From Bacteroidales bacterium (GTDB taxonomy: Bacteria; Bacteroidota; Bacteroidia; Bacteroidales; NBLH01), in NCBI GenBank assembly GCA_050291445.1, contig JBNKJW010000181.1, positions 2,739 to 66,738 on the forward strand: a stretch of 64,000 bases of DNA. The letters are read 5' to 3'. Positions 12,401-40,912 of this stretch are shown piece by piece (position 1 is the stretch's first letter; each line of letters starts with the position of its first letter). A program made the position numbers and the translations under genes. The notes beneath the pieces were generated by a model. That model worked only from the letters and a program-made list of their open reading frames with translations. It was not told the origin of the DNA and made no database searches.

Positions 12401-12775
12401 GGAACCAGCACTGTACTTGTTAGAGCAACTAATACAGTTAGTACTTGTACCATTGACATGGAAATTGAACCTGAATTAATAGTTGAACAGTGCCAGATAA
12501 TTGTTTACAATGGCTTTTCTCCAAACGATGACGGTATTAACGAGACATTTATTATTGAAGGTCTGATTAATTATCCAAATCACAAAGTGACAATTTTTAA
12601 TAGGTGGGGAAACAAAGTGTACGAAGCCTCACCCTATCTGAATGACTGGGATGGAACAAACATGTTTGGTGTAACAGTAGGAGGAAAAGACCTACCAGTA
12701 GGAACCTATTTTTACATAATAGAACCAGGCAATGGAGAAAAAGCTATCAAAGGTTATATTTACTTAAATCGATAA
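6482..12775 (+). CDS. Large repetitive surface protein with T9SS type-B (gliding-motility-associated) C-terminal sorting domain
   Basis: Signal peptide; ~15 PKD-like repeats (NAG.DQ..C...L.GN.P..G.W...SGP); ~7 repeats of a second type (VC....TITI..SE.GINYE); C-terminal YNGFSPNDDGINETF...IFNRWG..VY...WDG...LPVGTYFY. Confidence 0.92.
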   Translation: MLNFRRKNTAFSFLRNILLFSLILVSSSVLKAQNCTVNAGIPATICDNETMQLQGNSTGLFTTTASWSQVGGPSVSIADPNNLNSTVTGYASGQAYTFRISATCQDGVNVYDEVTIDVNPVTEANASVDQQSCPGTEIITLNGNSPGVNETGQWTIQSNGGSVGGLTASDPNSTLNLPETDAGNSILRWSINHSNGCSSYDEVLITNYGGVLPVSAGNDQTLGNCYTTTQSTNLSGSYAGDGSGGQQGTWSLVSGPNYPTIANANNRNTAVSNLVEGVYVFRWEVTGPCASGSDEVTITVPGATQGVTSADAPNQRFCYGATTAILEGAIPQYANEVGTWVQTGGPAAIITSSNNATTSVTGLDGSSTYVFSYTITNSNTGCSTTHNNIYIRYTTAPTIDIGADQVLDCGVNSVTISPSVTGGTNTRYKIISGPLTSPVWIGDNSANVTINGLNQEGTYTIQFERYSVGSGCSSAFDVVNVSVADAATASNAGTDQNLACNIVETDLAGNAPSEGIGTWSQVSGPNTANIYDVYDRSSHIDNLIEGQYVFRWVISGGNSCSVEQDEVIVNVATSNPAAAAGNDRTVCHSTEVILEGNTPKEGAVGEWSVTPNTGVTFSNINDPSASVFGMQANTAYTFTWTITNQCQVESADVVITTGNMAGPSPAFAGPDQCEATGTITLSMDGNSPLVGQGLWTVLSGPNSPTITDNTLPTTSVTGMVDGHYEIEWSINVPGCVSTRDTIVASIVSAVTQSNAGADKSICGSAISLSVNEPALNETGHWEQVLGSSGYTVSNINDYNVTFTDLLPGRYEFAWVIEKGVCPSSSDTLVLTVTQQPDVSITASDYAVCSATTATLAANNPNSGTGVWSVVGQSTNQPNIASVSSPTTTVSNLATGTYNFRWTITSGPDCAEEIDEITIQVSAPAVADPNQTLCNVTETFLEGTEGTDGVWSISTSNTGNPIPLISNTSVHTANVSGMGLDETYWFTYTVPAIYGCSETQDSLTVSTSPHGTDPDAGPDQEICTNGGNSVTMEANAPDTGIGSWNQLSGPNSANIVNAASNITAINNLIAGIYVFEWNVEYGNCGNYSDIVRITVNDPPTTADAGTDQVNACQFDAQLSGNLPSAGIGVWTLISAPTASATTAIVIDNPNLPNSTISNITDLGDYEFMWTTTNGSVCAASMDNVILTFTADPPTAPNAGSDQDLCDATSFKMAGNNPAIGTGTWSQISGPGGILITNPDSYNTTITNVSAGTYEFQWEIVHGGCTLTDNVTIINNTTPSAADASGTDPEICQFDSPQLVGSEPSPGTGVWSFVSGPTTPIISTPVSTLSNVTGTSTGTYTFRWTVSNGACASSSDDIAVTIVNNPVTNITVSGNTVCDGADATVTISSSENLINYELFIGGNSVATGTGDGGDIDITVPASEISVGLNYVDITATNSTGCAVNLDNQATIAVNATPVQTNPVSNDEVCENSIATITISTSVSGVRYEAYSGVTLVGTENGNGGDLDISIPTNGSWVGSNTISLIATNTTTSCVSNLSNNSTITVNANPLTDRIVSGNTACLGQNGTVTVELSETGINYEAFIGATSVGTGAGNGGDLSISINGGDFVLGNNTIDLVATNATNSCALPLTNQATVEVVNPPLIDRSVNGNTVCQNSDGTVTISASETGVTYELYIGTTPVGTGIGTGNDLPITVGRSNLSVGTNTIHITASNTGCTESLTNQATINVNANPIASLSINGSELCDLLNGTITINSSETGIDYEAFISGTSVSTGTGDGADLVLTVLASDLNIGTNNVQVVATNSITNCSANMITTPIISVNSNPNYTVLAKGSTVCDEANASLTIESSEPGINYEAFIGATSIGMATGNGNDLIMNVLADDLIVGNNIVDVIASTSNNSCIGVLDNQATIFVNSNPLSDLQIGDTKICNGDTAYITISNSEQDISYTLFINDDLVGNADGNGSTLKIAIPYSLYEVGTSTVLVRATNTVSTCTIDMEIEPELIVEQCQIIVYNGFSPNDDGINETFIIEGLINYPNHKVTIFNRWGNKVYEASPYLNDWDGTNMFGVTVGGKDLPVGTYFYIIEPGNGEKAIKGYIYLNR

Positions 12776-12800
12776 TTTATTCAATAAAAAACATAAATAA

Positions 12801-13730
12801 ATGAGGTCGCTAATCTTTATTCTAATTTTAAGTTGTATATCGTTAGTCTCTAGTGCTCAGCAAGATCCAATGTTTACACATTATGCTTTCAACACTCTTG
12901 CAATCAACCCGGCCTATGCCGGAACCAGAGACGCATTAACAATTACCGGGTTACATCGCTCGCAATGGGTGGCATTTAAGGGGGCACCAACAACTCAAAC
13001 CCTGACAGGACACTCTCCTGTTTTCAATGAAAATGTAGGAATTGGTCTTTCGGTATTAAATGATAAAATAGGACCAAGTAATACAACATCATTTTACCTT
13101 GATTTTTCGTATAAAATTAAAATCAACAAAAAAGCAAAGCTTTCATTTGGGTTAAAAGGCGGACTAAACCTAAAAAAAACTGACCTTACTTCATTAAATA
13201 CCTACGAACAAAACGATCCGCTATTTATGGAGGATATTAAAAGCGAGTTCTTGCCCAATTTTGGTTTTGGAATGTATTACTACACCGATAAATACTATGT
13301 TGGGCTATCTATTCCGAAATTGTTGGAAAACAATTTTACCGAAAACTCAGTATCAGGAAGTGTAGATTTAGCAAGTGAGAAAAAACATTATTTTCTAATC
13401 GGTGGAGCTGTTTTCTCTCTTTCTGAAAGTGTAACTTTAAAACCAACCATGTTTCTTAAAGTAACGAATGGTGCCCCAATTGAAGGCGATATCACAGCAA
13501 ATTTCATTTTTTATGACCGATTCTGGACAGGAGCAATGTTCAGAACAGGTGATGCTATTGGAATATTAGCAGGTTTAAATATTACCGAACAACTTGCAGT
13601 TGGTTACTCATTTGATTGGTCACTGGTGAACTCAACAGGTAAATACAATGCAGGTAGCCATGAAATTATGATAAGGTATGATTTCATTTTCAAAAAACAG
13701 AAGATGATTCGTTCACCCAGGTACTTCTAA
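12801..13730 (+). CDS. T9SS PorP/SprF family outer-membrane protein
   Basis: QQDPMFTHY..N.LAINPAYAG, RSQW, GAP.T, GSHEIMIRY, SPRYF terminus; adjacent to type-B cargo. Confidence 0.93.
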   Translation: MRSLIFILILSCISLVSSAQQDPMFTHYAFNTLAINPAYAGTRDALTITGLHRSQWVAFKGAPTTQTLTGHSPVFNENVGIGLSVLNDKIGPSNTTSFYLDFSYKIKINKKAKLSFGLKGGLNLKKTDLTSLNTYEQNDPLFMEDIKSEFLPNFGFGMYYYTDKYYVGLSIPKLLENNFTENSVSGSVDLASEKKHYFLIGGAVFSLSESVTLKPTMFLKVTNGAPIEGDITANFIFYDRFWTGAMFRTGDAIGILAGLNITEQLAVGYSFDWSLVNSTGKYNAGSHEIMIRYDFIFKKQKMIRSPRYF

Positions 13731-13826
13731 TTCATGAACCAACAAACCTTCCAGTGTGCGTAGCTTCTAGCAGTATTTAACTATCAGACAAAACAATATT
13801 GAATTGTAAATCAATAAAATAACCAA

Positions 13827-16028
13827 ATGAAAAATCAACGAATAATCCTTTTTTCACTAACCTTTATTTGTGTTTTTCAACTCTCAGCGCAGAAAAGAAC
13901 CCTAAAAAGAGGCGAAAATCTATATAAAACATATTCTTATTCAGAATCCATTAAAAAATACGAAGCTATAACAGATAAAACAATTGACATTTACAGAAAG
14001 CTTGCAGAGAGTTATTACAATATTGGTAAATTGAATAAGGCCGAGAATTATTGGAAAATTGTTGTTGAAAACGAATCAAGAACAGCTGATGATATTTACA
14101 GTTATGCTTCTGTACTCTCAATGAATAAAAGGTACGAGGAGTCGGAAAAGTGGATGCGGGAATTTAATAAAATAAATGCAAACGACACCCGAGGAAAGCT
14201 TTGGGCAAATAACAGTGGATTTTATGAAAAACTTCAACAAGATAAAGGCCGGTTTAAAATTGAAAGTTTAAATATAAATAGTAAACAGGAGGATTTTGGT
14301 ACGGCATACTACAAAGACAAAATTGTTTTTGCATCCACACGCCAACCACTTAAAATAGTAAAAAGAGAGTGGAACTGGAATGAACTTCCTTTTCTTGATA
14401 TTTATGTTGGTGAAGTAGATTCAAATTTACATCTTACCTCTTTTGAAAAATTTCATAAAAATATTAATAAAAAGTTTCATGAGGGACCTGCATCGTTCAG
14501 TGCCGATGGTAAATTTATGGCTTTTACAAGAAACAATTACGAAGGAAAAAGCAAAGAAGGAATTATTAAACTAAAATTGTTCACTGCTGAATACAAAAAT
14601 GATAAATGGCAAAAACCTGTTCCACTACACTTTAACAGCAGCGAATACTCTGTTGGCCATGCCAGTTTAACTCCAAACGCCGATACCATGTATTTTGCGT
14701 CTAATATGCCCGGAGGTTTTGGAGGAGTAGATATTTACCGAATTTTTAGAAAAGCTGATGGTAGCTGGACAGATCCTGAAAATCTGGGTGAAAAAATAAA
14801 TACCGAAGGCGATGAAATGTTTCCTTTTGTTCATCCTGATGGAATGCTGTTTTATTCCTCAAACGGCTTACTAGGATTAGGAGGTTTGGATGTGTTTATT
14901 GCACAAATCACCCCAACAGGTTTTGGTAAGCCAGAAAATATTGGAGTGCCCGTTAATAGCAGTTATGATGATTTTGCCTTTATTCTTGATAAGCAGCAAA
15001 GAAGTGGTTATTTCTCATCAAACCGTTTCGAAGGCGAAGGTGATGATGATATTTATCTTTTCAGATTGCTGAAACCTTTTAGGTTTGGCAAGCTCTTGCG
15101 TGGCAAAACAATGGATCAAGACAGTAATATCCTTGCCAATGTAAAAGTAAATCTATACAATGAAAAGGGTGAAATAATCGGAACCACAACAACTTCTGAA
15201 GATGGAAAATATGAATGGGAAATTGAACAGGATAAATACTATTCGCTTGATGGAAAAAAGAAACAATATACTGATGCCCATAATACTGCTGATAGTCACA
15301 CAGAAGAATACATTGTTTATGCGGATCTAATTTTAACAAAAATTCCAGAATTTTCGCTGTATTTTGTTGTTACTGACGCAAGATCAGATGTTCCGTTGAA
15401 AGATGTTAAAGTTACAATTACCAATTATATTGAAAATACTAGCGAAAAAATAATCACCAATGAAAATGGAGACTTTTTCCGCGAACTGAAAGGGAAAAAA
15501 TTAAACGATAGCCTGAGCTATGAATTTACACTTGAAAAAGACGGATACATTTCTGAAACACACAGCTGGCAAAAAGTTCTTTATAGGGAAGGACAATATA
15601 ATGTGCACGAAGATTTGGATTTCGCTCTGGATATTGTTGAAGAAGGAATGGACTTAGGTAAGATATTGAAGATCAAACCCATATATTTTGATTACAATAA
15701 GTCAAACATCCGCCCGGATGCAGCCATTGAGTTGGACAAGATTGTAAAAGTAATGAATGACAATCCAAACATGGTAATCGAATTGGGTTCTCATACCGAT
15801 TGCAGAGGAAGTAAGCGCTACAATATGTCTTTGTCCGACAGAAGGGCAAAATCATCTGCCCGATATATTAAAGTAAGAATAACAAATTCTGAAAGGATTT
15901 ACGGAAAAGGTTATGGCGAAAGCAAACTTATTAATCATTGCGAATGTGAAGGAGCCAAAAAGGTTCCCTGCACTGAAGAAGAACACCAGTTAAACCGACG
16001 AACCGAGTTTACTATTCTTAAAAAGTAG
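13827..16028 (+). CDS. PorE-like TPR/PD40/OmpA peptidoglycan-binding protein
   Basis: TPR N-terminus, PD40 repeats (YFASNMPGGFGGVDIY; FSSNR..G.GDDDIY), OmpA domain (IYFDYNKS, SHTDCRGS, LSDRRA, NRRTEF). Confidence 0.92.
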   Translation: MKNQRIILFSLTFICVFQLSAQKRTLKRGENLYKTYSYSESIKKYEAITDKTIDIYRKLAESYYNIGKLNKAENYWKIVVENESRTADDIYSYASVLSMNKRYEESEKWMREFNKINANDTRGKLWANNSGFYEKLQQDKGRFKIESLNINSKQEDFGTAYYKDKIVFASTRQPLKIVKREWNWNELPFLDIYVGEVDSNLHLTSFEKFHKNINKKFHEGPASFSADGKFMAFTRNNYEGKSKEGIIKLKLFTAEYKNDKWQKPVPLHFNSSEYSVGHASLTPNADTMYFASNMPGGFGGVDIYRIFRKADGSWTDPENLGEKINTEGDEMFPFVHPDGMLFYSSNGLLGLGGLDVFIAQITPTGFGKPENIGVPVNSSYDDFAFILDKQQRSGYFSSNRFEGEGDDDIYLFRLLKPFRFGKLLRGKTMDQDSNILANVKVNLYNEKGEIIGTTTTSEDGKYEWEIEQDKYYSLDGKKKQYTDAHNTADSHTEEYIVYADLILTKIPEFSLYFVVTDARSDVPLKDVKVTITNYIENTSEKIITNENGDFFRELKGKKLNDSLSYEFTLEKDGYISETHSWQKVLYREGQYNVHEDLDFALDIVEEGMDLGKILKIKPIYFDYNKSNIRPDAAIELDKIVKVMNDNPNMVIELGSHTDCRGSKRYNMSLSDRRAKSSARYIKVRITNSERIYGKGYGESKLINHCECEGAKKVPCTEEEHQLNRRTEFTILKK

Positions 16029-16528: not shown

Positions 16529-17725
16529 ATGCCAGGAATGGAATTATTTGGTGCCGAAGAACGTAAAGAAGTCATGGACGTTCTTGAAACAGGAGCACTT
16601 TTTAGATACAATCATGATGAAATGCGTCAGGGTCATTGGAAAGCGAAAGATCTTGAAGCTGAAGTTAGAAAATTCACAGGAGCAAAATTTGCCCATGCGG
16701 TTTCAAGTGGCTCAACAGCAGTTGCTTGTGCATTGGCTGCAGCAGGTATTGGTCATGGCGATGAAGTTATCGTTCCTCCTTTTACATATATTGCTAGTAA
16801 TGAAGCAGTTCTATATGCAGGAGGACTTCCAGTATTTGCCGAAATAGATGAAAACCTTTGCATAAGTGCCGAAGGAATAAAAGCAGCAATTACCCCAAAA
16901 ACTAAAGCGGTTTTATTGGTACACATGTGTGGTGCTGCCGCCGATATGGATGCTATTATGAAAGTATGCGAAGAGCACAACCTGGTATTGATTGAAGATG
17001 CCGGACAAGCCTTAGGAGCTTTCTACAAAGGAAAATCAGTTGGTTTATTTGGAAAAACCGGGGCTTTCTCGTTTGATTTCTTTAAAATTACCACTTGTGG
17101 TGAAGGAGGTTTGTTTATAACAGATAGCGAAGAAAGGTATAAACTAGCAGACAGTTTTTCTGATCATGGTCATGATCATATTGGCAGTAATCGAGGAATG
17201 GAAAACCACCCTGTTTTAGGATTTAACTACAGAATTAGCGAATTGCATGCAGCAGTTGGTTTAGCTCAAATGCGAAAAATCAATAAAATACGCGATGCGA
17301 AAAAAGCAAACCAGCAATACATGAAAGAAAAACTTTCCGTGGTTGATGGTGTTACTTTCAGACCTGTTCCTGATCCAGAAGGAGATTCAGGTACTTTCCT
17401 AAATTTCTTTTTACCCACTACAGAATTAGCAGGAAAAGTTGTTGAAGAATTTGGCAAATCTGGTGTAGGAGGTTGTAATTATTGGTACACAAATATGTAT
17501 CATTTTATCAATCAATGGGATCATTTTAAAAACTTAAAATCATCTGCTCCATTGGCCATTCATCATTTTGGTGCACCACAGGATTACAATAAATTAGAAC
17601 TACCTAAATCACAAGAAGTTGTAGGTCGTTTAATTTCATTAGGTGTTCGCGCAACCTGGACCAAAGAGGAGATGGATGCATTAGCTGATAAGATGGTTAT
17701 TGCGATAAAAAAGGTGTTAAACTAA
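16529..17725 (+). CDS. kdnA: 8-amino-3,8-dideoxy-D-manno-octulosonate transaminase (DegT/DnrJ PLP family)
   Basis: MPG.ELFG.EE.KEV N-terminus, SFDFFKITTCGEGG, FSDHGHDHIG..RG.E.HP, PDPEGDS; closely resembles Shewanella KdnA; next to kdnB. Confidence 0.88.
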   Translation: MPGMELFGAEERKEVMDVLETGALFRYNHDEMRQGHWKAKDLEAEVRKFTGAKFAHAVSSGSTAVACALAAAGIGHGDEVIVPPFTYIASNEAVLYAGGLPVFAEIDENLCISAEGIKAAITPKTKAVLLVHMCGAAADMDAIMKVCEEHNLVLIEDAGQALGAFYKGKSVGLFGKTGAFSFDFFKITTCGEGGLFITDSEERYKLADSFSDHGHDHIGSNRGMENHPVLGFNYRISELHAAVGLAQMRKINKIRDAKKANQQYMKEKLSVVDGVTFRPVPDPEGDSGTFLNFFLPTTELAGKVVEEFGKSGVGGCNYWYTNMYHFINQWDHFKNLKSSAPLAIHHFGAPQDYNKLELPKSQEVVGRLISLGVRATWTKEEMDALADKMVIAIKKVLN

Positions 17726-17812
17726 CAAGTTAGAACTTAGAAATTGGTATATTAGAACTTAGCAAAAGTTTCTGAGTACAAATTTCTAGTTTCTAATTTC
17801 AAATTTCTGATA
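17726..17812. repeat. Intergenic heptamer (AGAAATT/AGAACTT) inverted array
   Basis: ttagaacttagaaattggtatattagaacttag ... tttctagtttctaatttcaaatttct. Confidence 0.7.
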
Positions 17813-17814
17813 AC

Positions 17815-18894
17815 GTGTTCAAAAACATTAAAAATATTGATAAAATCGTTTACGGAACAGGTAGTTTCGATCAGTTAGACGATATTATCGCCCCCAAAAG
17901 GGAAGAAAATGACAAGTTCTTTGTCTTTATAGTTGACGATTTTTTTCATGGGAAATACCTTGAAAAGCGGCTTCCTGTTTATAATGATGATGTAGTAAAA
18001 TTCATTTTTACTGGAAAAGACGAGCCCAAAACTGGGCAAATTGACGAATTAAGAGACGAAATCTTAAATTCAAAAGGCTTACCATCAGGAGTTGTTGGGA
18101 TTGGTGGCGGAGGAATTATGGACATTGCTAAAGCACTGTCGGTAATGTTTAAACAAGAAGGCTCATCTGAACTATACCAGGGGCTTAATCTTGCTAAAAA
18201 TCCCGGAATTTATCATGTTGGGATACCTACTATCTCAGGAACAGGTGCAGAATGTTCTACCACTGCTGTTTTAACTGGCCCAGAAAAAAAACTGGGAATT
18301 AAATGTGAATATACTCCTTTCGACCAAATTATTTTAGATCCAGAATTAACACTAACAGTTCCTACCAACCAATGGTTTTATACAGGTATGGATTGCTATA
18401 TTCATTGTGTTGAATCTTCAACAGGACGTTTGTACAACACCTTTAGCAAAGCCTATGGGAACACTGCAATGGACTTATGCAGAGACGTTTACCTGGGAGA
18501 AGAAAGTGGCCAAAATCTTGAAAATGCTGAAAAACTAATGGTTGCCTCGCTTTTTGGAGGCCTCAGCTTAAGCTATTCAGAAGTTGGGGTGTGTCATGCC
18601 CTATCGTATGGATTATCTTATGTGTTGGGAACAAGGCACGGAATAGGCAACTGCATAGCTTTTAATGTTTTGGAAGATTATTACCCCGAAGGAGTAAAAG
18701 AATTCCGTGAAATGATTCATAAACACCATATTGACTTGCCTGCCAACATGTCGAAAGACTGGACTGAAGAGCAAATCACTAAAATGGCCGAAATTTCATA
18801 CGCTTTAAGCCATATGTGGGATCATGCTTTAGGAAGCGACTGGAAGGATAAATTGACCTTAGATATGATTAAGGATTTGTTTAGGAGGATGTAA
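17815..18894 (+). CDS. kdnB: 3-deoxy-D-manno-octulosonate 8-oxidase (Fe-ADH family)
   Basis: GIGGGG..D, IPTISGTGAE, QWFYTGMDCYIHCVES, CHALSYGLSYVLG..HGIGNCIAF; resembles Shewanella KdnB; GTG start. Confidence 0.88.
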   Translation: MFKNIKNIDKIVYGTGSFDQLDDIIAPKREENDKFFVFIVDDFFHGKYLEKRLPVYNDDVVKFIFTGKDEPKTGQIDELRDEILNSKGLPSGVVGIGGGGIMDIAKALSVMFKQEGSSELYQGLNLAKNPGIYHVGIPTISGTGAECSTTAVLTGPEKKLGIKCEYTPFDQIILDPELTLTVPTNQWFYTGMDCYIHCVESSTGRLYNTFSKAYGNTAMDLCRDVYLGEESGQNLENAEKLMVASLFGGLSLSYSEVGVCHALSYGLSYVLGTRHGIGNCIAFNVLEDYYPEGVKEFREMIHKHHIDLPANMSKDWTEEQITKMAEISYALSHMWDHALGSDWKDKLTLDMIKDLFRRM

Positions 18895-19002: not shown

Positions 19003-19836
19003 ATGAGCAAAAAAATAGTAAAAGTAGGCGATATAGAATGTGGGGCAGATCAATTATTTTTGATCTCAGGCCCTTGTGTGATTGAGGATGAATCAATAAT
19101 GATGAAGACGGCTGAATATTTAAAAAAAATATCCGAGAAATTAAATATTCCAACCATTTACAAAGCATCATTCACAAAGGACAATCGTAGTGATTTAAAA
19201 TACTACCACGGCCCTGGTCTGGAAGAAGGCCTGAAAATTTTGCAAAAGGTAAAAGAAACCTTTGGTTTTCCGTTACTATCTGATATTCATGACTATACAC
19301 AGGCTAAACCGGCTGCCGAGGTGTTGGATATCATCCAAATTCCGGCTTATTTATGCATGCAATCATCCATTGTTACCGAAACCGCAAAAACCGGAAAGGT
19401 TATCAATATTAAGCACGGGCAGTTTTTAGCTCCAGAAAACATGGCTAAACCGGCAAAAAAAGCTATGGATGCTGGTAATGATCAAATCTTACTGACCGAA
19501 AGAGGTTACACTTTTGGCTACAACGATTTAATTGTTGACCCCAGAAGCTTTTACGAAATGAGCAAAACAGGTTTTCCGGTAATTTTTGATGTAACCCATT
19601 CAATAAGAAAATACGGAATACCAAGTGCCGACCCAAGCGGAGGCGCCAGGGAATATTTGCCAGTTCTTTCAAGAGCAGGTGTGGCAGCAGGTGTCGATGG
19701 TATATTTATCGAAACCCATCCCGAACCTGAAAAAGCATTGTGCGATGCTGCCAGTCAGTTATGCACCACCGATTTAGAAGAATTTTTAAAACCAGTTATT
19801 GAATTTCACAACTTAGAAGTTAAATATAGAAAATAA
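19003..19836 (+). CDS. kdsA: 3-deoxy-8-phosphooctulonate (KDO8P) synthase, metal-dependent type, divergent
   Basis: GPCVIE, KASF.KDNRS, QIPAYL, GQFLAP, ERG..FGYNDL, DVTHS, FIETHP.P..ALCD. Confidence 0.85.
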   Translation: MSKKIVKVGDIECGADQLFLISGPCVIEDESIMMKTAEYLKKISEKLNIPTIYKASFTKDNRSDLKYYHGPGLEEGLKILQKVKETFGFPLLSDIHDYTQAKPAAEVLDIIQIPAYLCMQSSIVTETAKTGKVINIKHGQFLAPENMAKPAKKAMDAGNDQILLTERGYTFGYNDLIVDPRSFYEMSKTGFPVIFDVTHSIRKYGIPSADPSGGAREYLPVLSRAGVAAGVDGIFIETHPEPEKALCDAASQLCTTDLEEFLKPVIEFHNLEVKYRK

Positions 19837-19840
19837 AACT

Positions 19841-20845
19841 ATGGAATTGTATCTTGACAGTGCCGATTTTAATGAAATTGAAAAGGTATTTAAACTCGGT
19901 TTTTTAGATGGTTTAACCACCACTCCTACTTTCATGCACCGACATGGAGTAACTGATATTGATGCCTTAATTTTAAAATTGGCTGACATTGTTCCAGTGC
20001 TGCAAGTAGAAGCTTTAGGAAAAACTGCTGAGGAAATTTATGCAGAAGCCCACAGACTATTAAAAATGGGCTTGAAAAAAGAGAATTCAGTATTTAAAAT
20101 TCCAATTTCTTTGGAAGGTGTAAAAGCTTGTAAAATGCTTACAAGTGAGGGTATTATGGTAAATGTACACCTTGTTTATACCTTGCAACAAGCTTATATG
20201 GCAATGCATGCGGGTGCTACTTATGTTTGTCCGTTGGTTGGTCGTTTACAAGACCAGGGACACGATGCCCTTGCTTTGGTTGAGCAATGCGTAGATGCTG
20301 TAAATTACTATGGCTACGATACAAAAATAATGTTCTCATCGGTACGAAATGTAGAACATGTGCGCAATGCTATTAATGTAGGAGTTCACACTATTACTGT
20401 GCCTTACAAAATATTGCAACAAATGCCTGAAAATAATTTTACTGCACTTGGAACTGAGCAATTCTTTGAGCACACCCGCTTAATGACAGTGAAAGTAAAA
20501 GATGCTATGAGCAAAACCAACCCGGTTGTTCCAGCTGACACGACTGTTCAGGATGCTTTGGTAAAAATGTCGGAATACGGCTTTGGTTGCATTATTATTG
20601 CAAATGGTGGCGAGCAGGCCAAAGGTGTTTTCACCGATGGCGATTTAAGAAGGTTGTTGCAAAAAGGCGGAAAAGACATCCTACAAAAGAAAATGGCTGA
20701 TTTAGAGTACAATACACCACTTTCGGTAGATGCAAACGACCTGCTTTTTAAAGCAAATGAAATGTTTAAAACCCACAAAGTAGACAATTTAATGGTAACT
20801 GAAAATGGTAAACCTATTGGATTGTTGGATATTCAGGATTTGTAA
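19841..20845 (+). CDS. Transaldolase/fructose-6-P-aldolase-fold domain fused to a KdsD-like CBS pair
   Basis: aa 1-~212: LYLDSAD, DGLTTTPT, FKIP (Schiff-base Lys), GATYV.P.VGRL.D.G; aa ~216-334: CBS pair with GVFTDGDLRR. Confidence 0.85.
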   Translation: MELYLDSADFNEIEKVFKLGFLDGLTTTPTFMHRHGVTDIDALILKLADIVPVLQVEALGKTAEEIYAEAHRLLKMGLKKENSVFKIPISLEGVKACKMLTSEGIMVNVHLVYTLQQAYMAMHAGATYVCPLVGRLQDQGHDALALVEQCVDAVNYYGYDTKIMFSSVRNVEHVRNAINVGVHTITVPYKILQQMPENNFTALGTEQFFEHTRLMTVKVKDAMSKTNPVVPADTTVQDALVKMSEYGFGCIIIANGGEQAKGVFTDGDLRRLLQKGGKDILQKKMADLEYNTPLSVDANDLLFKANEMFKTHKVDNLMVTENGKPIGLLDIQDL

Positions 20846-20910: not shown

Positions 20911-21612
20911 ATGAAAGAAATACAAGAATTATTTGAAAAGCAGGGGGGCGAGTTTATCTCATCCCCTTCTTTTATTCAGGAAAAATTAAAAACCATCAAA
21001 GCCTATATTTTTGATTGGGATGGTGTTTTTAACTCGGGTACAAAGGGTGAAAGCAAATCGAGCAATTATTCCGAAGTAGATGCTATGGGTACCAACATGC
21101 TCCGCCTGGGTTACTGGCTGGCCAACAACAGAGAACTTCCGGTAGTTTCAATAATCACCGGGGAAAACAACAAAATGGCCATCTATTTAGCTGAAAGAGA
21201 AAACTTTAACCATATTTACTTTAATTTTAAAAACAAAGCGGTTGCCTTTGAACATTTATTAAAAACTTTTAATCTAAAACCAGAAGAAGTAGCTTTTTGC
21301 TTTGATGACATCCTTGATTTTCCAATTACAAAAAAGTGTGGTTTGAAATTTATGGTGAGTAGAAAAGGTTCCCCTCTGTTTAATCAATATGTCATTGAAA
21401 AAGGCTATGCAGATTATATCACGGGTCAAACCGGAGGACAATTCGCCATTCGCGAAATTACTGAACTTATCCTGGGATTATTGGGTCAATACCACCCAGC
21501 ACTGGATGAAAGGAGCGCTTTTGGCCAAAATTACACCGATTATTTAGAACAACGGAATGCAGCTGATGTGAAAAAGTTTGTGTTTAAGAATGGTCAAATT
21601 GAGGGGATTTGA
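20911..21612 (+). CDS. HAD-superfamily phosphatase, KdsC/YrbI-like
   Basis: FDWDGVF DxD motif, IITG, FDDILD, GGQFAIRE..EL; operon context with kdsA. Confidence 0.8.
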   Translation: MKEIQELFEKQGGEFISSPSFIQEKLKTIKAYIFDWDGVFNSGTKGESKSSNYSEVDAMGTNMLRLGYWLANNRELPVVSIITGENNKMAIYLAERENFNHIYFNFKNKAVAFEHLLKTFNLKPEEVAFCFDDILDFPITKKCGLKFMVSRKGSPLFNQYVIEKGYADYITGQTGGQFAIREITELILGLLGQYHPALDERSAFGQNYTDYLEQRNAADVKKFVFKNGQIEGI

Positions 21613-22185: not shown

Positions 22186-23574
22186 ATGAAGCAAGTTTTG
22201 ATTTTTTGTCTGTCATTGATTTTATCCATTAATAGTTTTTCGCAAGGCTACGAAATACCAGTAAAGATAAACAATTTAAAGGATTCAATGATTTATTTTG
22301 GCAACCATTTTGGCAATGGTTTTTTTGTAAACGATAGTGCAAAACTTGATAATAACGGACAAGTTTTGTTTACTGGTGATGAGCCATTAAAGGGTGGAAT
22401 TTATTTTCTTTTCCTCCCAGGTGGTAAATATTTTGATTTCCTTATTGATAAACACCAAAAATTCAGCATACAATGTGATACCACAGACTTTTTAAATACT
22501 GTAAGTTTCAAAAATTCATTTCAAAACGAAAAGTTCTTCAACTATCAGAAATACCTAAATAAACAATATCAAACAATTAACCAGATAAAAGAAAAACAAA
22601 AAACCTATTTAACAAAATTAGACTCTTTAATGCAACTGGAGGATGAAGTACAGCTAATTCATAACAAAATATACCTACGCAAGGAGGAAATTATTTCCGA
22701 TCACCCGGATTCATTAATTTCGGTATTGATAAAAGCAGGCATCCCTATTATTCCACCACCGTCACCAAGAGATACAAGTGGCGCAATCATTGATTCAACC
22801 TTTGAATACAGGTATGTAAAAGCCCATTTTTTTGATAATATCGATTTTTCGGATGAGCGCTTGTTAAGAACGGCTATCCTTCAAAATAAAGTACTTGAAT
22901 ATTTAAACCGGATGGCACCACCAATGCTCGATTCAATTGCCAAAGAAGTTGATTATGTGGTTAAAAAAGCCTCCGCAAATCCCGAAGTATATAAATTTGT
23001 GCTTAATACCTTATTCAGGTTCTATAATAAAAGCAATATTATTAGTGATGAAAATATTTTTGTTTACATAGCAGAGAATTATTACCTGGCAGGTAAAACA
23101 CCATGGACTAATGAAGAATTTACAGAAAAATTAAAAAAAGATATTGCCGGAAGAAAACCGAACCTTATTGATGCAGTTGCCCCCGATTTTGCAATGAAAA
23201 ACGATAAAAACCAGGTAGTCAATTTACGAGATATTCAAAACAGGTATGTCATCTTGTATTTTTATGATGTTAAATGCGAAATTTGTAAACAAGTAAGCCC
23301 CGAATTAATGAATTTTTACCGAATTATTAAAGACCGTGGCGTTGATATAGTTGGTATTTACGTTGGCGAAGATAAAAATGCCTGGCTTAAGTACATTGAG
23401 GACAATAATTTAAAATGGACCAATGTTTGGGATCCTAAAAATGCATCAGGTTTTAGAGAGAACTATAAAATTGTAGGTACTCCGCAGTTGTTTTTACTGG
23501 ATGAAGACCAGAAAATTATTGCCAAAAGAATTACAGTGGAACAGTTGATGGGGTATTTCAATTCGGTTGATTAG
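22186..23574 (+). CDS. Secreted TlpA-like thioredoxin protein (DUF4369/DUF5106-type N-terminus)
   Basis: Signal peptide; HFFDNIDFSDERLLRT; C-terminal redoxin with CEIC and TPQLFLLD. Confidence 0.85.
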   Translation: MKQVLIFCLSLILSINSFSQGYEIPVKINNLKDSMIYFGNHFGNGFFVNDSAKLDNNGQVLFTGDEPLKGGIYFLFLPGGKYFDFLIDKHQKFSIQCDTTDFLNTVSFKNSFQNEKFFNYQKYLNKQYQTINQIKEKQKTYLTKLDSLMQLEDEVQLIHNKIYLRKEEIISDHPDSLISVLIKAGIPIIPPPSPRDTSGAIIDSTFEYRYVKAHFFDNIDFSDERLLRTAILQNKVLEYLNRMAPPMLDSIAKEVDYVVKKASANPEVYKFVLNTLFRFYNKSNIISDENIFVYIAENYYLAGKTPWTNEEFTEKLKKDIAGRKPNLIDAVAPDFAMKNDKNQVVNLRDIQNRYVILYFYDVKCEICKQVSPELMNFYRIIKDRGVDIVGIYVGEDKNAWLKYIEDNNLKWTNVWDPKNASGFRENYKIVGTPQLFLLDEDQKIIAKRITVEQLMGYFNSVD

Positions 23575-23632
23575 GTAGATTGAGAAGAATGAATAGAGAT
23601 TGAATAGAGATTGAATGGAGGTTGATGTGGAG

Positions 23633-24961
23633 ATGAAATTTAAAATAGCATTTTTACACTTGTTTATTTTGTTGTTTTTACCAGTGTCATCAATGGTGGC
23701 CCAGGGCTATAAAATTGATGTAAAAATAAAAGGTGCTGAAAACAAAGATGCTCATTTGGCGTTTTACATGGGCGATAAGCAATACATTACCCAAAATGTC
23801 AAGTTCAATAAATCAGGTGAGTTAACTTTTAAAGGGGAACAAAAACTGCCACCTGGTATTTATTTTATTGCAATTGATAACAACTACTTTAATATCTTAA
23901 TCAGAGATGAACAGGAATTTTCATTAAAAAGTGATACCACCAACATTGTTGGATTGATGAAAATTAAGGGCTCCAAAGAGAATGAGGTATTTTTCGATTA
24001 TCAAAAAAAATTACTTGCCAAGAAAAAAGTAATTGGTCAGCTGGAAGAAAAAATTAAAGTTCTTGAAAAAAATAACGATACGGTTCAAAATTATCAAAAT
24101 CAGATAGACCAACTTGTAGCAGAACTGGAACAGATAGCTGATGAAACTACAAAAAAGCATCCTGAAAGCTACATCGCCAAATTAATAGGTACAATGAGCA
24201 ACCAAAACATCGAGAATTTTAAGTTCGATGATAAGGACTTGCTCCGTACGCCCTTTTTTCACAACAGGGTGCGTTTATTCATTAAAAAAAGCATTGAAAA
24301 AAATGCCAATTATATCAATTACCAAACACAGCAACTTTTGTCATCAGTAAGGCACGAAGAAGCTAATTATCAATACATTGCAAATTATTTACTAAATTTC
24401 TACAATAGCTTTTATAAAATTGGCATGAACGAAGTATTTGTTTTTATTGCCGACAATTACTTTTTACCAGACAAAGCCACCTGGTTTAACCAAAAGCAGT
24501 TGGAAGAAATACAAAAACGAAGAGATTTTTTTGCACAAAGCCTTCCGGGAAAAGCTGCCCAGGATTTAACTTTAGAAAGCACAACTGGTGAGTTCTTTTC
24601 ATTGCACCAGGTAAAAGCCAACACCACCCTACTCTACTTTTGGTCAGCAGATTGTGGGCACTGTACAAAATCGACCAAAATACTGAAAAGTTACTACGAG
24701 CAGTTACGGGCAAAAAACATAGATGTATTCGCAGTAAATATTGACAAAGACAAAAAAAAGTGGCTAAAAAAAATAGAAGAAACCGAAGCAGAATGGATCA
24801 ACTGCTACGATCCGGACGAAACCTCAGGATTTAGGGAAAAATACTACGTATTTGGCAGCCCGCTGCTTTATGTCATCAACAACGAAAAAAACATTGTTGC
24901 CAAACTAAATGGCGAAGAAGCCATTGAAAAACTTTGTAAAGAACTGGTATTCAAACAATAA
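23633..24961 (+). CDS. Secreted TlpA-like thioredoxin protein, tandem paralog
   Basis: Same architecture; FWSADCGHC, SPLLYVI; likely start MKFKIAF at 23633. Confidence 0.85.
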   Translation: MKFKIAFLHLFILLFLPVSSMVAQGYKIDVKIKGAENKDAHLAFYMGDKQYITQNVKFNKSGELTFKGEQKLPPGIYFIAIDNNYFNILIRDEQEFSLKSDTTNIVGLMKIKGSKENEVFFDYQKKLLAKKKVIGQLEEKIKVLEKNNDTVQNYQNQIDQLVAELEQIADETTKKHPESYIAKLIGTMSNQNIENFKFDDKDLLRTPFFHNRVRLFIKKSIEKNANYINYQTQQLLSSVRHEEANYQYIANYLLNFYNSFYKIGMNEVFVFIADNYFLPDKATWFNQKQLEEIQKRRDFFAQSLPGKAAQDLTLESTTGEFFSLHQVKANTTLLYFWSADCGHCTKSTKILKSYYEQLRAKNIDVFAVNIDKDKKKWLKKIEETEAEWINCYDPDETSGFREKYYVFGSPLLYVINNEKNIVAKLNGEEAIEKLCKELVFKQ

Positions 24962-39011: not shown

Positions 39012-39246
39012 TTAATAGCTCTAAAGAAAATACAGATAAATATCTAATTTTCAATATTTTAAGTTACCGAAACAGGATAATATATATTGTACTAAAACCC
39101 TTAATCTACTACAAAGTTAGCTGAAAATAATGTAAAAATCTTTTTCTTATCCAAATATTAAACTTTTTTAACCCTCAGTTTAGTGTTATTTTTGACAACT
39201 AATTTGTAAATAAGAATTGTATATTGGTGTATTTGTTATTTGCATA

Positions 39247-39540
39247 CTAGTGTTAAGTCAAATTTGATATTTCTGGTAATTAGCCAGGTGTTGTCACCTG
39301 ACAAGTGCACCAGGGGCTATATCAAAACTAACTTTTGGTCGCTGCATTTCGACAGGTGGTACACTGAGCCTGCCGAAGTGCTCAATGCCCGAGCTTCGGT
39401 TGCTGTACTTCGACAAGTTCAGTATACCACATGCCGAAGTACTCAATGACCATCACTTTTAAGACTTTTACCTATGGTGAGGGCTTCGCCGTTGATACAA
39501 CCCCTAATTACCAGAATAATCAAATTTGACTTGGCACTAG
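39247..39540. mobile_element. MITE with ~35 bp terminal inverted repeats and CTAG ends, containing a nested element
   Basis: ctagtgttaagtcaaatttgatatttctggtaattag ... ctaattaccagaataatcaaatttgacttggcactag. Confidence 0.85.
39312..39505. mobile_element. Nested MITE-like element carrying REP-like hairpins
   Basis: TIR aggggctatatcaa / ttgatacaacccct; internal ttcgacag..ctgagcctgccgaagtgctcaatg and ttcgacaag..gccgaagtactcaatg. Confidence 0.7.
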
Positions 39541-39589
39541 GCGATTACAGTTGCTACCTACAAAAATGCAATACCCCAATATGCTAATA

Positions 39590-39853
39590 ACCTGAGTTCG
39601 ACATAAAATAATTGCACAGTTTAGGTTAATTTATAGTAGAAATTGGCCTAAATTTTTGAAGAACTATCGGGATAATTCAATAAATTTGGGGCGATTTATG
39701 CGAAAATTAACTAAATTTAAAAAGAAAAGCCATAATCATACCATCTCTGCACTGAAAATTTCTTAAAATAACCCGTTATTATTTCAAAATTTTCAGTGCA
39801 GATCTAGCATAATTATGACTTTCTGTGCTCATTATTTTACATCGAACTCAGGT
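39590..39853. mobile_element. MITE (264 bp) with 5-bp TAATA target-site duplication
   Basis: TIR acctgagttcgacataaaataat / attattttacatcgaactcaggt; TAATA at 39585-39589 and 39854-39858; internal palindrome 39746-39802. Confidence 0.85.
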
Positions 39854-39878
39854 TAATAAACCAATTTCAAATTTTGTT

Positions 39879-40364: not shown

Positions 40365-40912
40365 ATATGCAATTCTCAGGAGGTGTTTTTAAGTTAAAAT
40401 ACCAGATATTACAAACTAATAATTATTGACAATTATAGTACAAAAGTATAAATAAATAATCAATAATAAACTTTTTTATATGATATTTTACAAAAATAAA
40501 TAAAACATTGAAAAAAGTACAAACCAAATAGAGTATTAATAATCAAAGAGTTACAACTTCAACACAAAAACTGACTCTAATACAGTTTTCAATTTCAACC
40601 TTATTTGGTGATAATATCCAAACCAATGGAAGAAAATCTCTAAAATTCCAAAAAACCAAAAAGCTGGAAGGTTAAAATGTTTATAAAACAGCTAATAACA
40701 CTTGAAAAAATCACCCCCATTAGGATCATGACTAAATTCCTATAATTCTCGCTTTTTTAAACAAAAATTTCGAAAAATGATTTTCGAACCACCATTCCAA
40801 CTGAATTACAGAAAAACCAACAATCTCAAAATCAGTACATTAAACAAACAAACCAACTTCATACTATTGTTAAAGTAAAACGAAGTAACTATCTTTGTAA
40901 AAAAACAAAAAA

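What the first reader, a model, noticed from the sequence alone, without database searches (positions are those of the whole stretch)
19841..20845. Transaldolase-fold + CBS fusion occupying the KdsD slot of a Kdo operon: candidate non-homologous arabinose-5-phosphate-supplying enzyme
Seen: the gene sits 4 nt after kdsA and before a KdsC-like phosphatase. Its C-terminal CBS pair (GVFTDGDLRR) is of the KdsD type, but the N-terminal domain is a small transaldolase/FSA barrel rather than SIS. The Schiff-base Lys (FKIP), Asp6 and GRL Arg are kept, while several canonical residues differ: TTNP->TTTP, NVTL->NVHL, SPF/APY->CPL. Established: KdsD (SIS+CBS) makes A5P for KdsA, and E. coli FSA can make or cleave A5P from glycolaldehyde + G3P. 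Inference: this is a domain-swapped replacement that supplies the aldose phosphate for KdsA by aldol/transaldol chemistry, which would be an undescribed entry to Kdo synthesis.
Basis: partly seen in the sequence, partly recalled or inferred. Interest (0 to 1): 0.88.

Follow-up and report, generated by a model that had tools for sequence, protein, structure and literature searches.

The report
Transaldolase-fold stand-in for KdsD
In many Bacteroidota the enzyme that normally makes arabinose-5-phosphate for the cell-envelope sugar Kdo is missing, and a re-tooled transaldolase-type gene sits in its place, which points to an undescribed enzyme for an essential step.

Summary
Window 19841-20845 (+) encodes a 334-aa protein with a short transaldolase/FSA barrel and a KdsD-type CBS pair. 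It starts 4 nt after the genome's only kdsA and lies upstream of a KdsC-like phosphatase. Clear KdnA and KdnB orthologues lie upstream.

The genome has no SIS-type arabinose-5-phosphate isomerase. It does have a separate, canonical transaldolase.

The family keeps the Schiff-base Lys86, Asp6, Glu57 and the phosphate site. It invariably replaces three pocket residues: Thr110 to His, Ser130 to Cys and Phe132 to Leu (the "HCL" signature).

- **Complementary distribution.** Of 201 genomes of the same class, 39 carry the fusion and 119 an SIS isomerase. Only 1 has both. Mixed families and genera are complementary.
- **Neighbourhood.** kdsA lies directly upstream in 61 of 72 genome loci.
- **Divergent relatives.** HCL proteins that are far more divergent, some without CBS, also sit beside kdsA in metagenome and IMG/VR contigs.

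Best reading: a non-homologous replacement of KdsD that supplies arabinose-5-phosphate. The chemistry is untested. It could be an aldol reaction, a C2 epimerisation or an isomerisation. I found no paper describing this enzyme.

The parts
16529..17725 (+). KdnA-like PLP aminotransferase (8-amino-3,8-dideoxy-manno-octulosonate transaminase orthologue)
   Evidence: Pfam DegT_DnrJ_EryC1, 275.8 bits. Best solved relative is 5k8b, 453 bits, E 9.5e-135, over residues 1-382.
17815..18894 (+). KdnB-like Fe-ADH family enzyme (3-deoxy-manno-octulosonate 8-oxidase orthologue)
   Evidence: Pfam Fe-ADH. Best solved relative is 5k8c, 429.9 bits, E 6.8e-128, full length.
19003..19836 (+). kdsA, KDO8P synthase; the only one found in the genome
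   Evidence: TIGR01362, 335.5 bits against a cut-off of 314. The other three DAHP_synth_1 hits in the genome score as DAHP synthases.
19841..20482 (+). TAL/FSA-fold barrel of the 'HCL' type (residues 1-214): Asp6, Thr28, Glu57, Lys86, Asn108, His110, Cys130, Leu132, Arg135, Ser167, Arg169
   Evidence: Pfam TAL_FSA, 140.6 bits. TIGR00875 scores 166.5 bits, below its 245.95 cut-off. These residues are invariant or near-invariant in 192 distinct sequences. AF2 model pLDDT is 90.2. Foldseek gives a target-normalised TM of 0.90-0.92 to 1vpx.
20096..20098 (+). codon of Lys86, the predicted Schiff-base lysine
   Evidence: Aligns with Lys86 of the T. acidophilum transaldolase 3s0c. Present in 191 of 192 sequences; the remaining one has a gap.
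20168..20170 (+). codon of His110, which replaces the Thr conserved in transaldolases
   Evidence: Thr in 1vpx, 3r8r and 3s0c. His in 192 of 192 sequences. Also invariant in the 11 short HCL proteins.
20228..20236 (+). codons Cys130-Pro131-Leu132, which replace Ser-Pro-Phe of transaldolases
   Evidence: Cys in 192 of 192 and Leu in 192 of 192 sequences.
20483..20845 (+). CBS pair of the KdsD/KpsF type (residues 215-334) plus the stop codon
   Evidence: TIGR00393 positions 153-267, 73.4 bits; PRK10892 KdsD, 55.7 bits. Solved relatives are the CBS domains of arabinose-5-phosphate isomerases 4o9k, 3fna and 3k2v. A congener-type KdsD finds this stretch as its best hit in the whole genome (E 1e-10) and nothing for its SIS half.
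20911..21612 (+). KdsC-like HAD phosphatase (233 aa)
   Evidence: Best NCBIfam families are KdsC PRK09484 (77 bits, cut-off 208) and TIGR01670 (58.3 bits). Found directly downstream of the fusion in 60 of 73 loci with enough flank.

Best explanation
The gene encodes the organism's supplier of D-arabinose-5-phosphate (A5P) for KdsA. It is a non-homologous replacement of the SIS-type isomerase KdsD. The catalytic SIS domain of a KdsD-like protein has been exchanged for a diverged short transaldolase barrel, and the KdsD-type CBS pair has been kept.

Inferred mechanism. The barrel keeps the Schiff-base lysine (Lys86), Asp6, Glu57 and the phosphate site (Arg135, Ser167, Arg169). It re-tools the donor pocket and proton relay with His110, Cys130 and Leu132. 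I think it binds an aldopentose-5-phosphate through its C1 aldehyde. The spacing from carbonyl to phosphate is then the same as from C2 to C6 in fructose-6-phosphate. The enzyme would work on the C2-C3 unit through the enamine, as E. coli FSA does when it makes or cleaves A5P. The input could be glyceraldehyde-3-phosphate plus a glycolaldehyde unit. Alternatively it could be ribose-5-phosphate, re-formed as its C2 epimer without free glycolaldehyde. KdsA then pulls the A5P into Kdo8P. KdsC-like, KdsB and WaaA complete the path, and KdnB and KdnA divert part of it to Kdo8N.

Shown: domain anatomy, the residue pattern, operon position, absence of an SIS isomerase, and complementary distribution. 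Inferred: the product and the chemistry.

I put the function-level claim (A5P supply by any chemistry) at about 0.78. The confidence given here is for function plus Schiff-base C2-C3 chemistry.
For: **Own genome** (94% complete)
- No SIS-type isomerase was found. TIGR00393 matches only CBS parts. SIS hits are GlmS, a GlmS-like 853-aa ORF and GmhA.
- There is a single kdsA, the one next door.
- KdsB-like and WaaA-like genes lie elsewhere in the genome (tblastn).
- A separate canonical transaldolase with TTNP/NCTL/SPF is present.

**Complementary distribution**
- Class sample of 201 genomes: 39 carry the fusion and 119 an SIS isomerase; both occur in 1 (G608) and neither in 44. Families f93, f86 and f118 are split exactly.
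- Same-order sample of 41 genomes: 13 carry the fusion, and 1 of them has a weak SIS-only hit (G405). 22 of the 28 others have an isomerase. 4 of the 5 tested genomes with neither also lack kdsA.
- Genus g41: G195 and G267 carry the fusion and have no KdsD. G183 and G347 have KdsD and no fusion.
- The complete genome behind L060 carries the fusion, has no SIS isomerase and has no KdnB.

**Neighbourhood in 80 genome loci**
- kdsA lies upstream within 1.5 kb on the same strand in 61 of 72 loci.
- A KdsC-like gene lies downstream in 60 of 73 loci.
- KdsB is present in 40 and WaaA-like in 23 of 80 loci.
- In G065, kdsD itself sits directly after kdsA.

**Divergent HCL proteins** (TAL domain 33-48% identical to the window's)
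- kdsA lies upstream in 29 of 35 metagenome loci with enough flank. 20 of 44 complete ORFs have no CBS.
- 7 of 8 IMG/VR loci have kdsA or a kdsA-like hit next door.

**Residues and tree**
- His110, Cys130 and Leu132 are invariant in 192 sequences.
- The fusion barrels separate from plain transaldolases at one 100/100 branch.

**Precedent** (passages read with 'find')
- FsaA cleaves and forms A5P, with Km 0.65 mM (PMC6900487).
- TalB F178Y forms both A5P and R5P from glycolaldehyde plus G3P (PMC9947464).
- The changed positions are the FSA donor pocket and the catalytic-water triad (PMC13259622).
Against: - No activity was measured, and nothing shows the product is A5P.
- Two fusion-bearing MAGs also show an SIS hit: G608 (full KdsD, 311.8 bits; 88% complete, 670 contigs) and G405 (119 bits, SIS-only; 82% complete, 1230 contigs).
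- 44 of 201 class genomes have neither enzyme. G419 and G379 have neither, and G419 still has kdsA. So absence of a recognisable KdsD does not by itself identify the substitute.
- 5 of 80 loci, and G371, have the fusion without kdsA or a KdsC-like gene nearby.
- Free glycolaldehyde is not a known abundant metabolite (my knowledge), and no conserved neighbour could supply it. After the Kdo genes, the next most common neighbour occurs in 12 of 80 loci.
- The enzyme lacks the Tyr that gives FSA its aldolase character.
- Genomes in the samples are related, so the counts overstate independence.
Confidence: 0.52

Rival explanations
1. Same role, different chemistry. The barrel has become a true aldose-ketose isomerase that converts ribulose-5-phosphate to A5P through an enediol. 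Glu57, His110 and perhaps Cys130 would shuttle the proton, and Lys86 would polarise the carbonyl rather than form a Schiff base. This would be a convergent copy of the KdsD reaction.
For: - Gene displacement usually preserves the reaction (general knowledge), and no extra substrate-supplying gene is conserved in the operon.
- The new invariant His and Cys are typical proton-transfer residues of sugar-phosphate isomerases (recalled, not tested).
- All the comparative evidence for A5P supply applies equally here.
Against: - Every residue tied to Schiff-base aldol chemistry stays invariant: Lys86, Asp6, Glu57 and Asn108.
- A ketopentose bound at C2 would sit one carbon short of the conserved phosphate site, compared with fructose-6-phosphate (inference from the FSA and TAL substrates).
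- I know of no isomerase in the TAL/FSA family, and none turned up.
Confidence: 0.22
2. The protein does not make A5P. It has another sugar-phosphate task tied to the Kdo pathway, such as draining or buffering A5P, making an octulose phosphate, or a Kdo8N-specific step. A5P would then come from an unrecognised enzyme.
For: - Transaldolases accept pentose phosphates as acceptors (general knowledge; the octulose review PMC5854111 was seen only in the listing).
- KdnA and KdnB accompany the gene in 40 of 58 loci with enough upstream flank.
- 44 of 201 genomes lack both enzymes, so other routes or Kdo-less envelopes exist.
Against: - The fusion occurs in genomes with no KdnB (G439, a complete genome, and G443).
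- It replaces KdsD almost one for one, including within genera.
- It carries the KdsD-type CBS pair.
- 4 of 5 tested genomes with neither enzyme also lack kdsA.
- An A5P-consuming enzyme in genomes with no known A5P source is hard to rationalise.
Confidence: 0.18
3. It is an ordinary transaldolase of the pentose-phosphate pathway that happens to carry a regulatory CBS pair.
For: The Pfam TAL_FSA match and fold are clear. Public annotations call it a transaldolase or TalC/MipB aldolase.
Against: - The same genomes carry a separate canonical transaldolase.
- It scores below the TIGR00875 cut-off.
- Four canonical pocket residues are replaced, three of them invariantly.
- It is separated from plain transaldolases by a long 100/100 branch.
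- It is linked to kdsA and is complementary to KdsD.
Confidence: 0.03

Closest known systems
KdsD / GutQ / KpsF arabinose-5-phosphate isomerases (SIS + CBS pair, TIGR00393)
   Same: It sits in the same place in the Kdo gene order; kdsA-kdsD is seen in G065. It has a homologous C-terminal CBS pair and a similar length, and its distribution is complementary. The presumed product is the same.
   Different: It has no SIS domain. The catalytic domain is a (beta/alpha)8 transaldolase barrel, so it is not a family member.
[quoted passage not shown]
   Same: Same fold and the same Schiff-base lysine family (66 bits). FsaA reversibly forms and cleaves A5P from glycolaldehyde plus G3P (PMC6900487; PMC9947464).
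   Different: At the four pocket positions FSA has Gln59, Thr109, Ala129 and Tyr131, while this protein has Glu57, His110, Cys130 and Leu132. The FSA numbering is from PMC13259622. The position-by-position equivalence is by motif and partly recalled. FSA has no CBS pair and no known link to Kdo genes.
Short (subfamily-4 type) transaldolases: T. maritima 1vpx, B. subtilis 3r8r, T. acidophilum 3s0c
   Same: These are the closest sequences and structures: 114-136 bits, 32-36% identity and target-normalised TM of 0.89-0.92. Asp6, Glu, Lys86, Asn108, Arg135, Ser167 and Arg169 are kept.
   Different: Asn28 becomes Thr, Thr110 becomes His, Ser130 becomes Cys and Phe132 becomes Leu. A CBS pair is added. 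The genomic context is Kdo, not the pentose-phosphate pathway.
SIS-only arabinose-5-phosphate isomerases of about 200 aa without CBS. I recall this type as described for Bacteroides fragilis; no paper was read.
   Same: They are another variant solution for the same step within the same order. 13 of 28 fusion-less relatives carry one.
   Different: They keep the SIS fold and lose the CBS pair, which is the opposite of what happened here.
Shewanella oneidensis KdnB / KdnA (Kdo8N pathway; 5k8c, 5k8b)
   Same: The two genes upstream are close orthologues (430 and 453 bits). They travel with the cluster in 40 of 58 loci with enough upstream flank.
   Different: They act after Kdo is made. The fusion also occurs without KdnB, so it is not part of that branch.

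Membership tests
Transaldolase/FSA superfamily (Pfam PF00923) | Domain match above the gathering score | tested here: met
   140.6 bits against a cut-off of 27, residues 3-212.
Transaldolase/FSA superfamily (Pfam PF00923) | (beta/alpha)8 barrel like the short decameric transaldolases | tested here: met
   AF2 model pLDDT 90.2. Foldseek to 1vpx: E 2.7e-22, target-normalised TM 0.90, rmsd 1.8 A over 212 columns. The oligomeric state was not tested.
Transaldolase/FSA superfamily (Pfam PF00923) | Schiff-base lysine plus Asp6 and the Glu/Gln of the proton relay | tested here: met
   Lys86, Asp6 and Glu57 align with those of 1vpx and 3s0c. Each is present in 191 of 192 sequences.
Functional short transaldolase / FSA (NCBIfam TIGR00875 equivalog) | Score above the curated cut-off | tested here: not met
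   166.5 bits against a cut-off of 245.95. The genome's other TAL scores 259 bits.
Functional short transaldolase / FSA (NCBIfam TIGR00875 equivalog) | Canonical pocket: Asn28, Thr110 (catalytic-water triad), Ser/Ala130, Phe/Tyr132 | tested here: not met
   The protein has Thr28, His110, Cys130 and Leu132. Among representatives of 200 aa or more from the best 150, the pattern NTSF occurs in 71, while THCL or NHCL occurs in 29.
Functional short transaldolase / FSA (NCBIfam TIGR00875 equivalog) | Transaldolase or F6P-aldolase activity | not testable with these tools
   Needs an enzyme assay.
KdsD/GutQ/KpsF arabinose-5-phosphate isomerase (TIGR00393) | N-terminal SIS catalytic domain | tested here: not met
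   No SIS match in Pfam or NCBIfam. TIGR00393 matches only positions 153-267.
KdsD/GutQ/KpsF arabinose-5-phosphate isomerase (TIGR00393) | C-terminal CBS pair of the KpsF type | tested here: met
   73.4 bits to the KpsF C-terminus. PDB hits 4o9k, 3fna and 3k2v. It is the best hit in the whole genome for a KdsD CBS pair.
KdsD/GutQ/KpsF arabinose-5-phosphate isomerase (TIGR00393) | Produces A5P for KdsA (function, not homology) | not testable with these tools
   Only indirect support: operon position and complementary distribution.
Kdo8N branch (KdnB oxidase, KdnA transaminase), for the two upstream genes | Full-length close similarity to the solved Shewanella enzymes | tested here: met
   5k8c: 429.9 bits over 2-359. 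5k8b: 453 bits over 1-382. Activity and the presence of Kdo8N in the LPS were not tested.

The most novel reading that the evidence does not exclude
The 'HCL' transaldolase clade is an ancient, widespread and so far unrecognised enzyme family. It makes A5P directly from ribose-5-phosphate, by a lysine-enamine retro-aldol/aldol or a deprotonation/reprotonation at C2. In other words, it is a pentose-phosphate 2-epimerase built on the transaldolase fold. This would give a KdsD-independent entry to Kdo that needs neither ribulose-5-phosphate isomerisation nor free glycolaldehyde. It occurs fused to a KdsD-derived CBS pair in Bacteroidota, and as a stand-alone enzyme beside kdsA in other lineages and on putative viral contigs.
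Probability: 0.2. Interest if true: 0.9.

Novelty: new variant of a known kind. Interest (0 to 1): 0.8.

Why it matters
Kdo is essential for the outer membrane of most Gram-negative bacteria, and KdsD is treated as the only route to its precursor A5P.

- **A pathway hole.** About a fifth of a balanced sample of this class lack any SIS isomerase and carry this gene instead (39 of 201 genomes, 18 of 122 genera). Pathway reconstructions therefore have a hole there, and the gene is mis-annotated as transaldolase.
- **New chemistry for the fold.** If confirmed, this would be a new case of non-homologous isofunctional enzymes in an essential pathway. It would also be a new natural activity for the transaldolase/FSA scaffold, which is much used in biocatalysis for A5P and related sugars.
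- **The CBS pair.** It hints that the CBS pair of KdsD has a function worth keeping when the catalytic domain is swapped.
- **Kdo8N.** It extends the Kdo8N genes kdnA and kdnB to Bacteroidota.
- **Testability.** The prediction can be tested directly with an existing E. coli auxotroph.

Tried and rejected
- **Ordinary transaldolase.** Rejected, because a canonical paralogue is present in the same genomes and the pocket is changed.
- **Kdo8N-specific role.** Rejected, because the fusion occurs in genomes with no KdnB.
- **A second kdsA or a hidden kdsD in the genome.** Not found. The three other DAHP_synth_1 hits are DAHP synthases, and the SIS hits are GlmS, a GlmS-like ORF and GmhA.
- **tblastn sensitivity.** tblastn with a congener-type KdsD and default filters found nothing at all, not even the CBS pair, so that run was too insensitive. 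Repeated with filters off, it found only CBS parts.
- **N28T as a hallmark.** Rejected. The wider clade has N or T at position 28.
- **Literature.** Searches found no paper on a transaldolase-CBS protein in Kdo synthesis. Only the held library was searched. Papers in subscription journals may say more, for example the original KdnA/KdnB work and the Bacteroides SIS-only isomerase work, which I only recall. Supplements were not opened.
- **Structure.** The structure model and Foldseek only confirm the fold. The tools give no coordinates, so pocket geometry was not measured.
- **Not done.** A whole-genome test for the divergent HCL group, which is known only from metagenome contigs. Taxonomy of the short HCL proteins is also missing, because the listing of cluster members was off.
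Full report
**What is there.** The ORF at 19841-20845 (+) encodes 334 aa and starts 4 nt after the stop of the upstream gene. Pfam finds a TAL_FSA domain at residues 3-212 (140.6 bits) and two CBS stretches. NCBIfam matches the N-terminal part to the short transaldolase/FSA model TIGR00875, but below its cut-off (166.5 against 245.95 bits). It matches the C-terminal residues 215-329 to positions 153-267 of the KpsF/GutQ isomerase model (73.4 bits). No SIS domain is found.

The neighbours on the same strand are:
- a KdnA orthologue (453 bits to 5k8b);
- a KdnB orthologue (430 bits to 5k8c);
- KdsA (TIGR01362, 335.5 bits against a cut-off of 314);
- the fusion;
- a KdsC-like HAD phosphatase (best family KdsC, below cut-off).

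**The barrel.** The nearest solved proteins are short transaldolases: T. maritima 1vpx (136 bits), B. subtilis 3r8r and T. acidophilum 3s0c. E. coli FSA is more distant, at about 66 bits. An AlphaFold model built on 31 sequences has a mean pLDDT of 90.2, with one weak stretch at residues 131-140. It superposes on 1vpx with a target-normalised TM of 0.90-0.92.

The alignments place Asp6, Glu57, Lys86, Asn108, Arg135, Ser167 and Arg169 on the catalytic and phosphate-binding residues of transaldolases. Four pocket residues differ: Asn28 to Thr, Thr110 to His, Ser130 to Cys and Phe132 to Leu.

In 192 distinct family members, His110, Cys130 and Leu132 are present in 192 of 192. Lys86, Asp6, Glu57 and Thr28 are each present in 191 of 192, the remaining one being a gap.

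A recent FSA paper, read as passages, places the equivalent FSA residues as follows. Asn28 and Ala129 lie in the donor pocket. Thr109 and Tyr131, with Gln59, hold the catalytic water (PMC13259622). So the changes hit exactly the donor-recognition and proton-relay positions.

The genome's other transaldolase (contig C282) has the canonical TTNP, NCTL and SPF motifs and passes the TIGR00875 cut-off.

In a tree of 25 fusion barrels and 15 plain Bacteroidota transaldolases, the two groups are separated by one long branch with 100/100 support. The fusion rows were the window, every fourth of the 80 loci, and four G-handle genomes. The plain rows were 14 from the phylum sample plus the genome's own. 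All other rows were left out.

**Is KdsD really missing?** In the window's genome (6.9 Mb, 307 contigs, 94% complete):
- TIGR00393 matches only CBS portions, plus a 27-bit piece inside a GlmS-like ORF.
- The Pfam SIS model finds only GlmS, that 853-aa GlmS-like ORF, and GmhA (279.5 bits to the GmhA model).
- A KdsD taken from a fusion-less member of the phylum sample (G183) finds the fusion's CBS pair as its best hit in the genome (E 1e-10). It finds nothing for its SIS half.
- The window's kdsA is the only one. The three other DAHP_synth_1 hits score as DAHP synthases.
- KdsB-like and WaaA-like genes lie on other contigs (tblastn).

So the Kdo pathway is present, and every step is accounted for except A5P formation.

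**Neighbourhoods.** Eighty loci from species-representative genomes carry proteins 68-96% identical to the fusion. By record title they come from Bacteroidales/Lentimicrobiaceae, Chitinophagaceae, Flavipsychrobacter, Cyclobacteriaceae, Flammeovirgaceae and others. A few titles from other phyla are probably mis-binned contigs.
- kdsA lies on the same strand within 1.5 kb upstream in 61 of 72 loci with enough flank. The median gap is 75 nt.
- A KdsC-like gene lies downstream in 60 of 73 loci.
- KdnA and KdnB are present in 40 of 58 loci.
- 75 of 80 loci have kdsA or the phosphatase; 5 have neither.
- Unsupervised clustering adds KdsB in 40 loci (285 bits, above cut-off) and a WaaA-like transferase in 23 loci.
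- The next most frequent neighbour occurs in only 12 of 80 loci. No extra conserved gene could therefore feed an unusual substrate.
- In G065, a fusion-less genome of the same family as the fusion-bearing G125, kdsD itself lies directly after kdsA. This justifies the phrase 'KdsD slot'.

**Complementary distribution.** In an evenly drawn sample of the class (201 genomes):
- 39 carry the fusion (E <= 1e-60), in 18 of 122 genera.
- 119 carry an SIS isomerase (TIGR00393, E <= 1e-25). Of these, 112 are above the cut-off, 2 are just below it, and 5 are SIS-only proteins of about 200 aa.
- Only G608 has both. It is an 88%-complete MAG in 670 contigs.
- 38 have the fusion only and 118 have an isomerase only. 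Two of the 118 are flagged unpublished (G524, G596).
- 44 have neither.
- Families with both states are split cleanly. In f93 the fusion is in G451 and G588, and the isomerase in G493, G529 and G560. In f86 the fusion is in G525, and the isomerase in G444, G489 and G556. In f118 the fusion is in G546, G576 and G605, and the isomerase in G476 and G514.

In the same-order sample (41 genomes):
- All 12 genomes of the window's genus, plus G436, carry the fusion.
- Of these 13, only G405 shows a weak SIS-only hit (119 bits). It is 82% complete and in 1230 contigs.
- 22 of the 28 others have an isomerase.
- Of the 6 with neither, 5 were tested, and 4 of those lack kdsA as well.

In the phylum sample, genus g41 contains G195 and G267 with the fusion and no SIS hit. 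It also contains G183 and G347 with full KdsD (315-333 bits) and no fusion. G379 has neither.

Among five genomes reached through loci, all lack an SIS isomerase. Two of them lack KdnB (G439 and G443; G439 is the genome behind L060, whose record title says complete genome). Three have KdnB elsewhere. One of these, G442, appears to be the same genome as G311, because the coordinates are identical.

Altogether I examined 60 fusion-bearing genomes, and 2 of them show an SIS-type hit. Relatives are not independent, but the pattern recurs in at least 13 families.

**A wider clade.** A profile-free search of 1.84 billion representatives with the barrel alone found 61 proteins at E <= 1e-30. Among the 150 best, I aligned those of 200 aa or more and read the four pocket residues:
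- The canonical pattern Asn-Thr-Ser-Phe occurs in 71 proteins.
- The pattern (Thr or Asn)-His-Cys-Leu occurs in 29. Of these, 12 are long and 17 are short.
- Seven long HCL representatives were scanned, and all are TAL+CBS fusions.
- The short ones are complete stand-alone proteins of about 210-230 aa. They are 35-54% identical to the first of them. Asp, Glu, Lys, Asn, His, Cys, Leu, Ser and Arg are invariant among them.

An alignment of 11 short HCL proteins pulled 80 metagenome loci.
- 51 of these have barrels only 33-48% identical to the window's. In that group a bona fide kdsA lies upstream on the same strand within 1.2 kb in 29 of 35 loci with enough flank. One such kdsA, in L139, scores 339 bits against a cut-off of 314.
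- 36 of the 51 have a kdsA hit somewhere in the locus.
- Of 44 complete ORFs, 24 are 300 aa or longer and 20 are 250 aa or shorter.
- 77 of 79 ORFs of 140 aa or more carry both HCL motifs.
- Their other neighbours are a cytidylyltransferase, an SDR, GalE and methyltransferases, which points to glycan clusters.

Eight IMG/VR contigs show the same pairing. Five have kdsA directly upstream, and two have a weaker kdsA-like hit directly downstream. I did not check that these contigs are viral.

So the link to kdsA is older and wider than the CBS fusion. This is independent support for a function in A5P supply.

**Mechanism.** The following points are established by others, read as passages.
- E. 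coli FsaA cleaves A5P into glycolaldehyde plus G3P, with Km 0.65 mM and kcat 3.6 per second. The reaction is reversible (PMC6900487).
- FsaA makes A5P from these two compounds in vitro and in vivo.
- The transaldolase variant TalB F178Y makes both A5P and R5P from them (PMC9947464).

The scaffold can therefore act on the C2-C3 bond of pentose phosphates, and its stereocontrol at C2 is not absolute.

My inference runs as follows. The Schiff-base set and the phosphate site are strictly kept. An aldopentose-5-phosphate bound through C1 has the same carbonyl-to-phosphate spacing as F6P bound through C2. The residue that contacts the C1 hydroxymethyl of ketose donors is changed (Ser130 to Cys). For these reasons the enzyme most likely works on A5P through a lysine enamine. 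His110 would take over a proton-transfer role that Tyr131 plays in FSA.

The net reaction cannot be decided here. It could be glycolaldehyde plus G3P to A5P, R5P to A5P, or an enediol isomerisation of Ru5P that re-uses Glu, His and Lys. The lack of any conserved glycolaldehyde-supplying neighbour favours a common pentose phosphate as the input.

**Known or new.** Public names for the family are only 'transaldolase family protein', 'TalC/MipB family fructose-6-phosphate aldolase' or 'CBS domain-containing protein'. Seven full-text searches found no description of such an enzyme. The held library lacks most subscription-journal papers.

I rate this as a new variant of known kinds: a transaldolase-fold enzyme doing the job of KdsD. 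The evidence is strong but wholly comparative, and the chemistry is open.

Noticed in passing
window 16529-18894: Close orthologues of Shewanella KdnA and KdnB (453 and 430 bits to 5k8b and 5k8c) lie in a Bacteroidota Kdo operon. They recur in 40 of 58 related loci with enough upstream flank. This suggests that Kdo8N, known to me only from Shewanella LPS, is also made by many Bacteroidota.
   Followed up: partly
P0130, P0136, P0181: These are TAL+CBS proteins of 334-339 aa in which the Schiff-base Lys and most pocket residues are replaced (Arg, Ser or Arg at position 86). They look like catalytically dead relatives of the fusion. Their context and role are unknown.
   Followed up: no
L199-L206 (IMG/VR contigs): HCL-type transaldolase-like genes sit next to kdsA on 5 of 8 contigs from the viral collection. 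Two more have a weak kdsA-like hit next door. I did not check whether these contigs are really viral.
   Followed up: partly
L009 (G000:C107:37282-40662; ORF 37897-40455, minus strand): An 853-aa ORF has a GlmS-like glutamine-amidotransferase N-terminus, a long middle part and an SIS domain (65 bits). It lies on the same contig as the ordinary 615-aa GlmS and is not a KdsD-type protein. Its function was not examined.
   Followed up: no
G608, G405, G419, G379: These genomes are exceptions to the either-or pattern. G608 has both the fusion and a full KdsD. G405 has the fusion and a weak SIS-only hit. G419 has kdsA but neither enzyme. G379 has neither enzyme. All but G379 are fragmented assemblies. 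Contamination, gaps or a third route were not resolved.
   Followed up: partly
class sample; G417, G420, G431, G438: 44 of 201 genomes of the class have neither enzyme. Four of five such genomes tested in the same order also lack kdsA, so Kdo-free envelopes may be common in parts of this class.
   Followed up: partly
window 6482-16028: A 2097-aa ORF (6482-12775) is followed by a 309-aa ORF and a 733-aa ORF. The C-terminus of the 733-aa ORF looks OmpA-like by eye. The region 8001-10000 has a raised G+C of 0.43. None of this was analysed.
   Followed up: no
window 22186-24961: Two tandem ORFs of 462 and 448 aa have signal-peptide-like starts and a C-terminal CxxC motif, so they are thioredoxin-like by eye. 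They lie directly after the Kdo cluster and are not conserved next to the fusion in the 80 loci.
   Followed up: no
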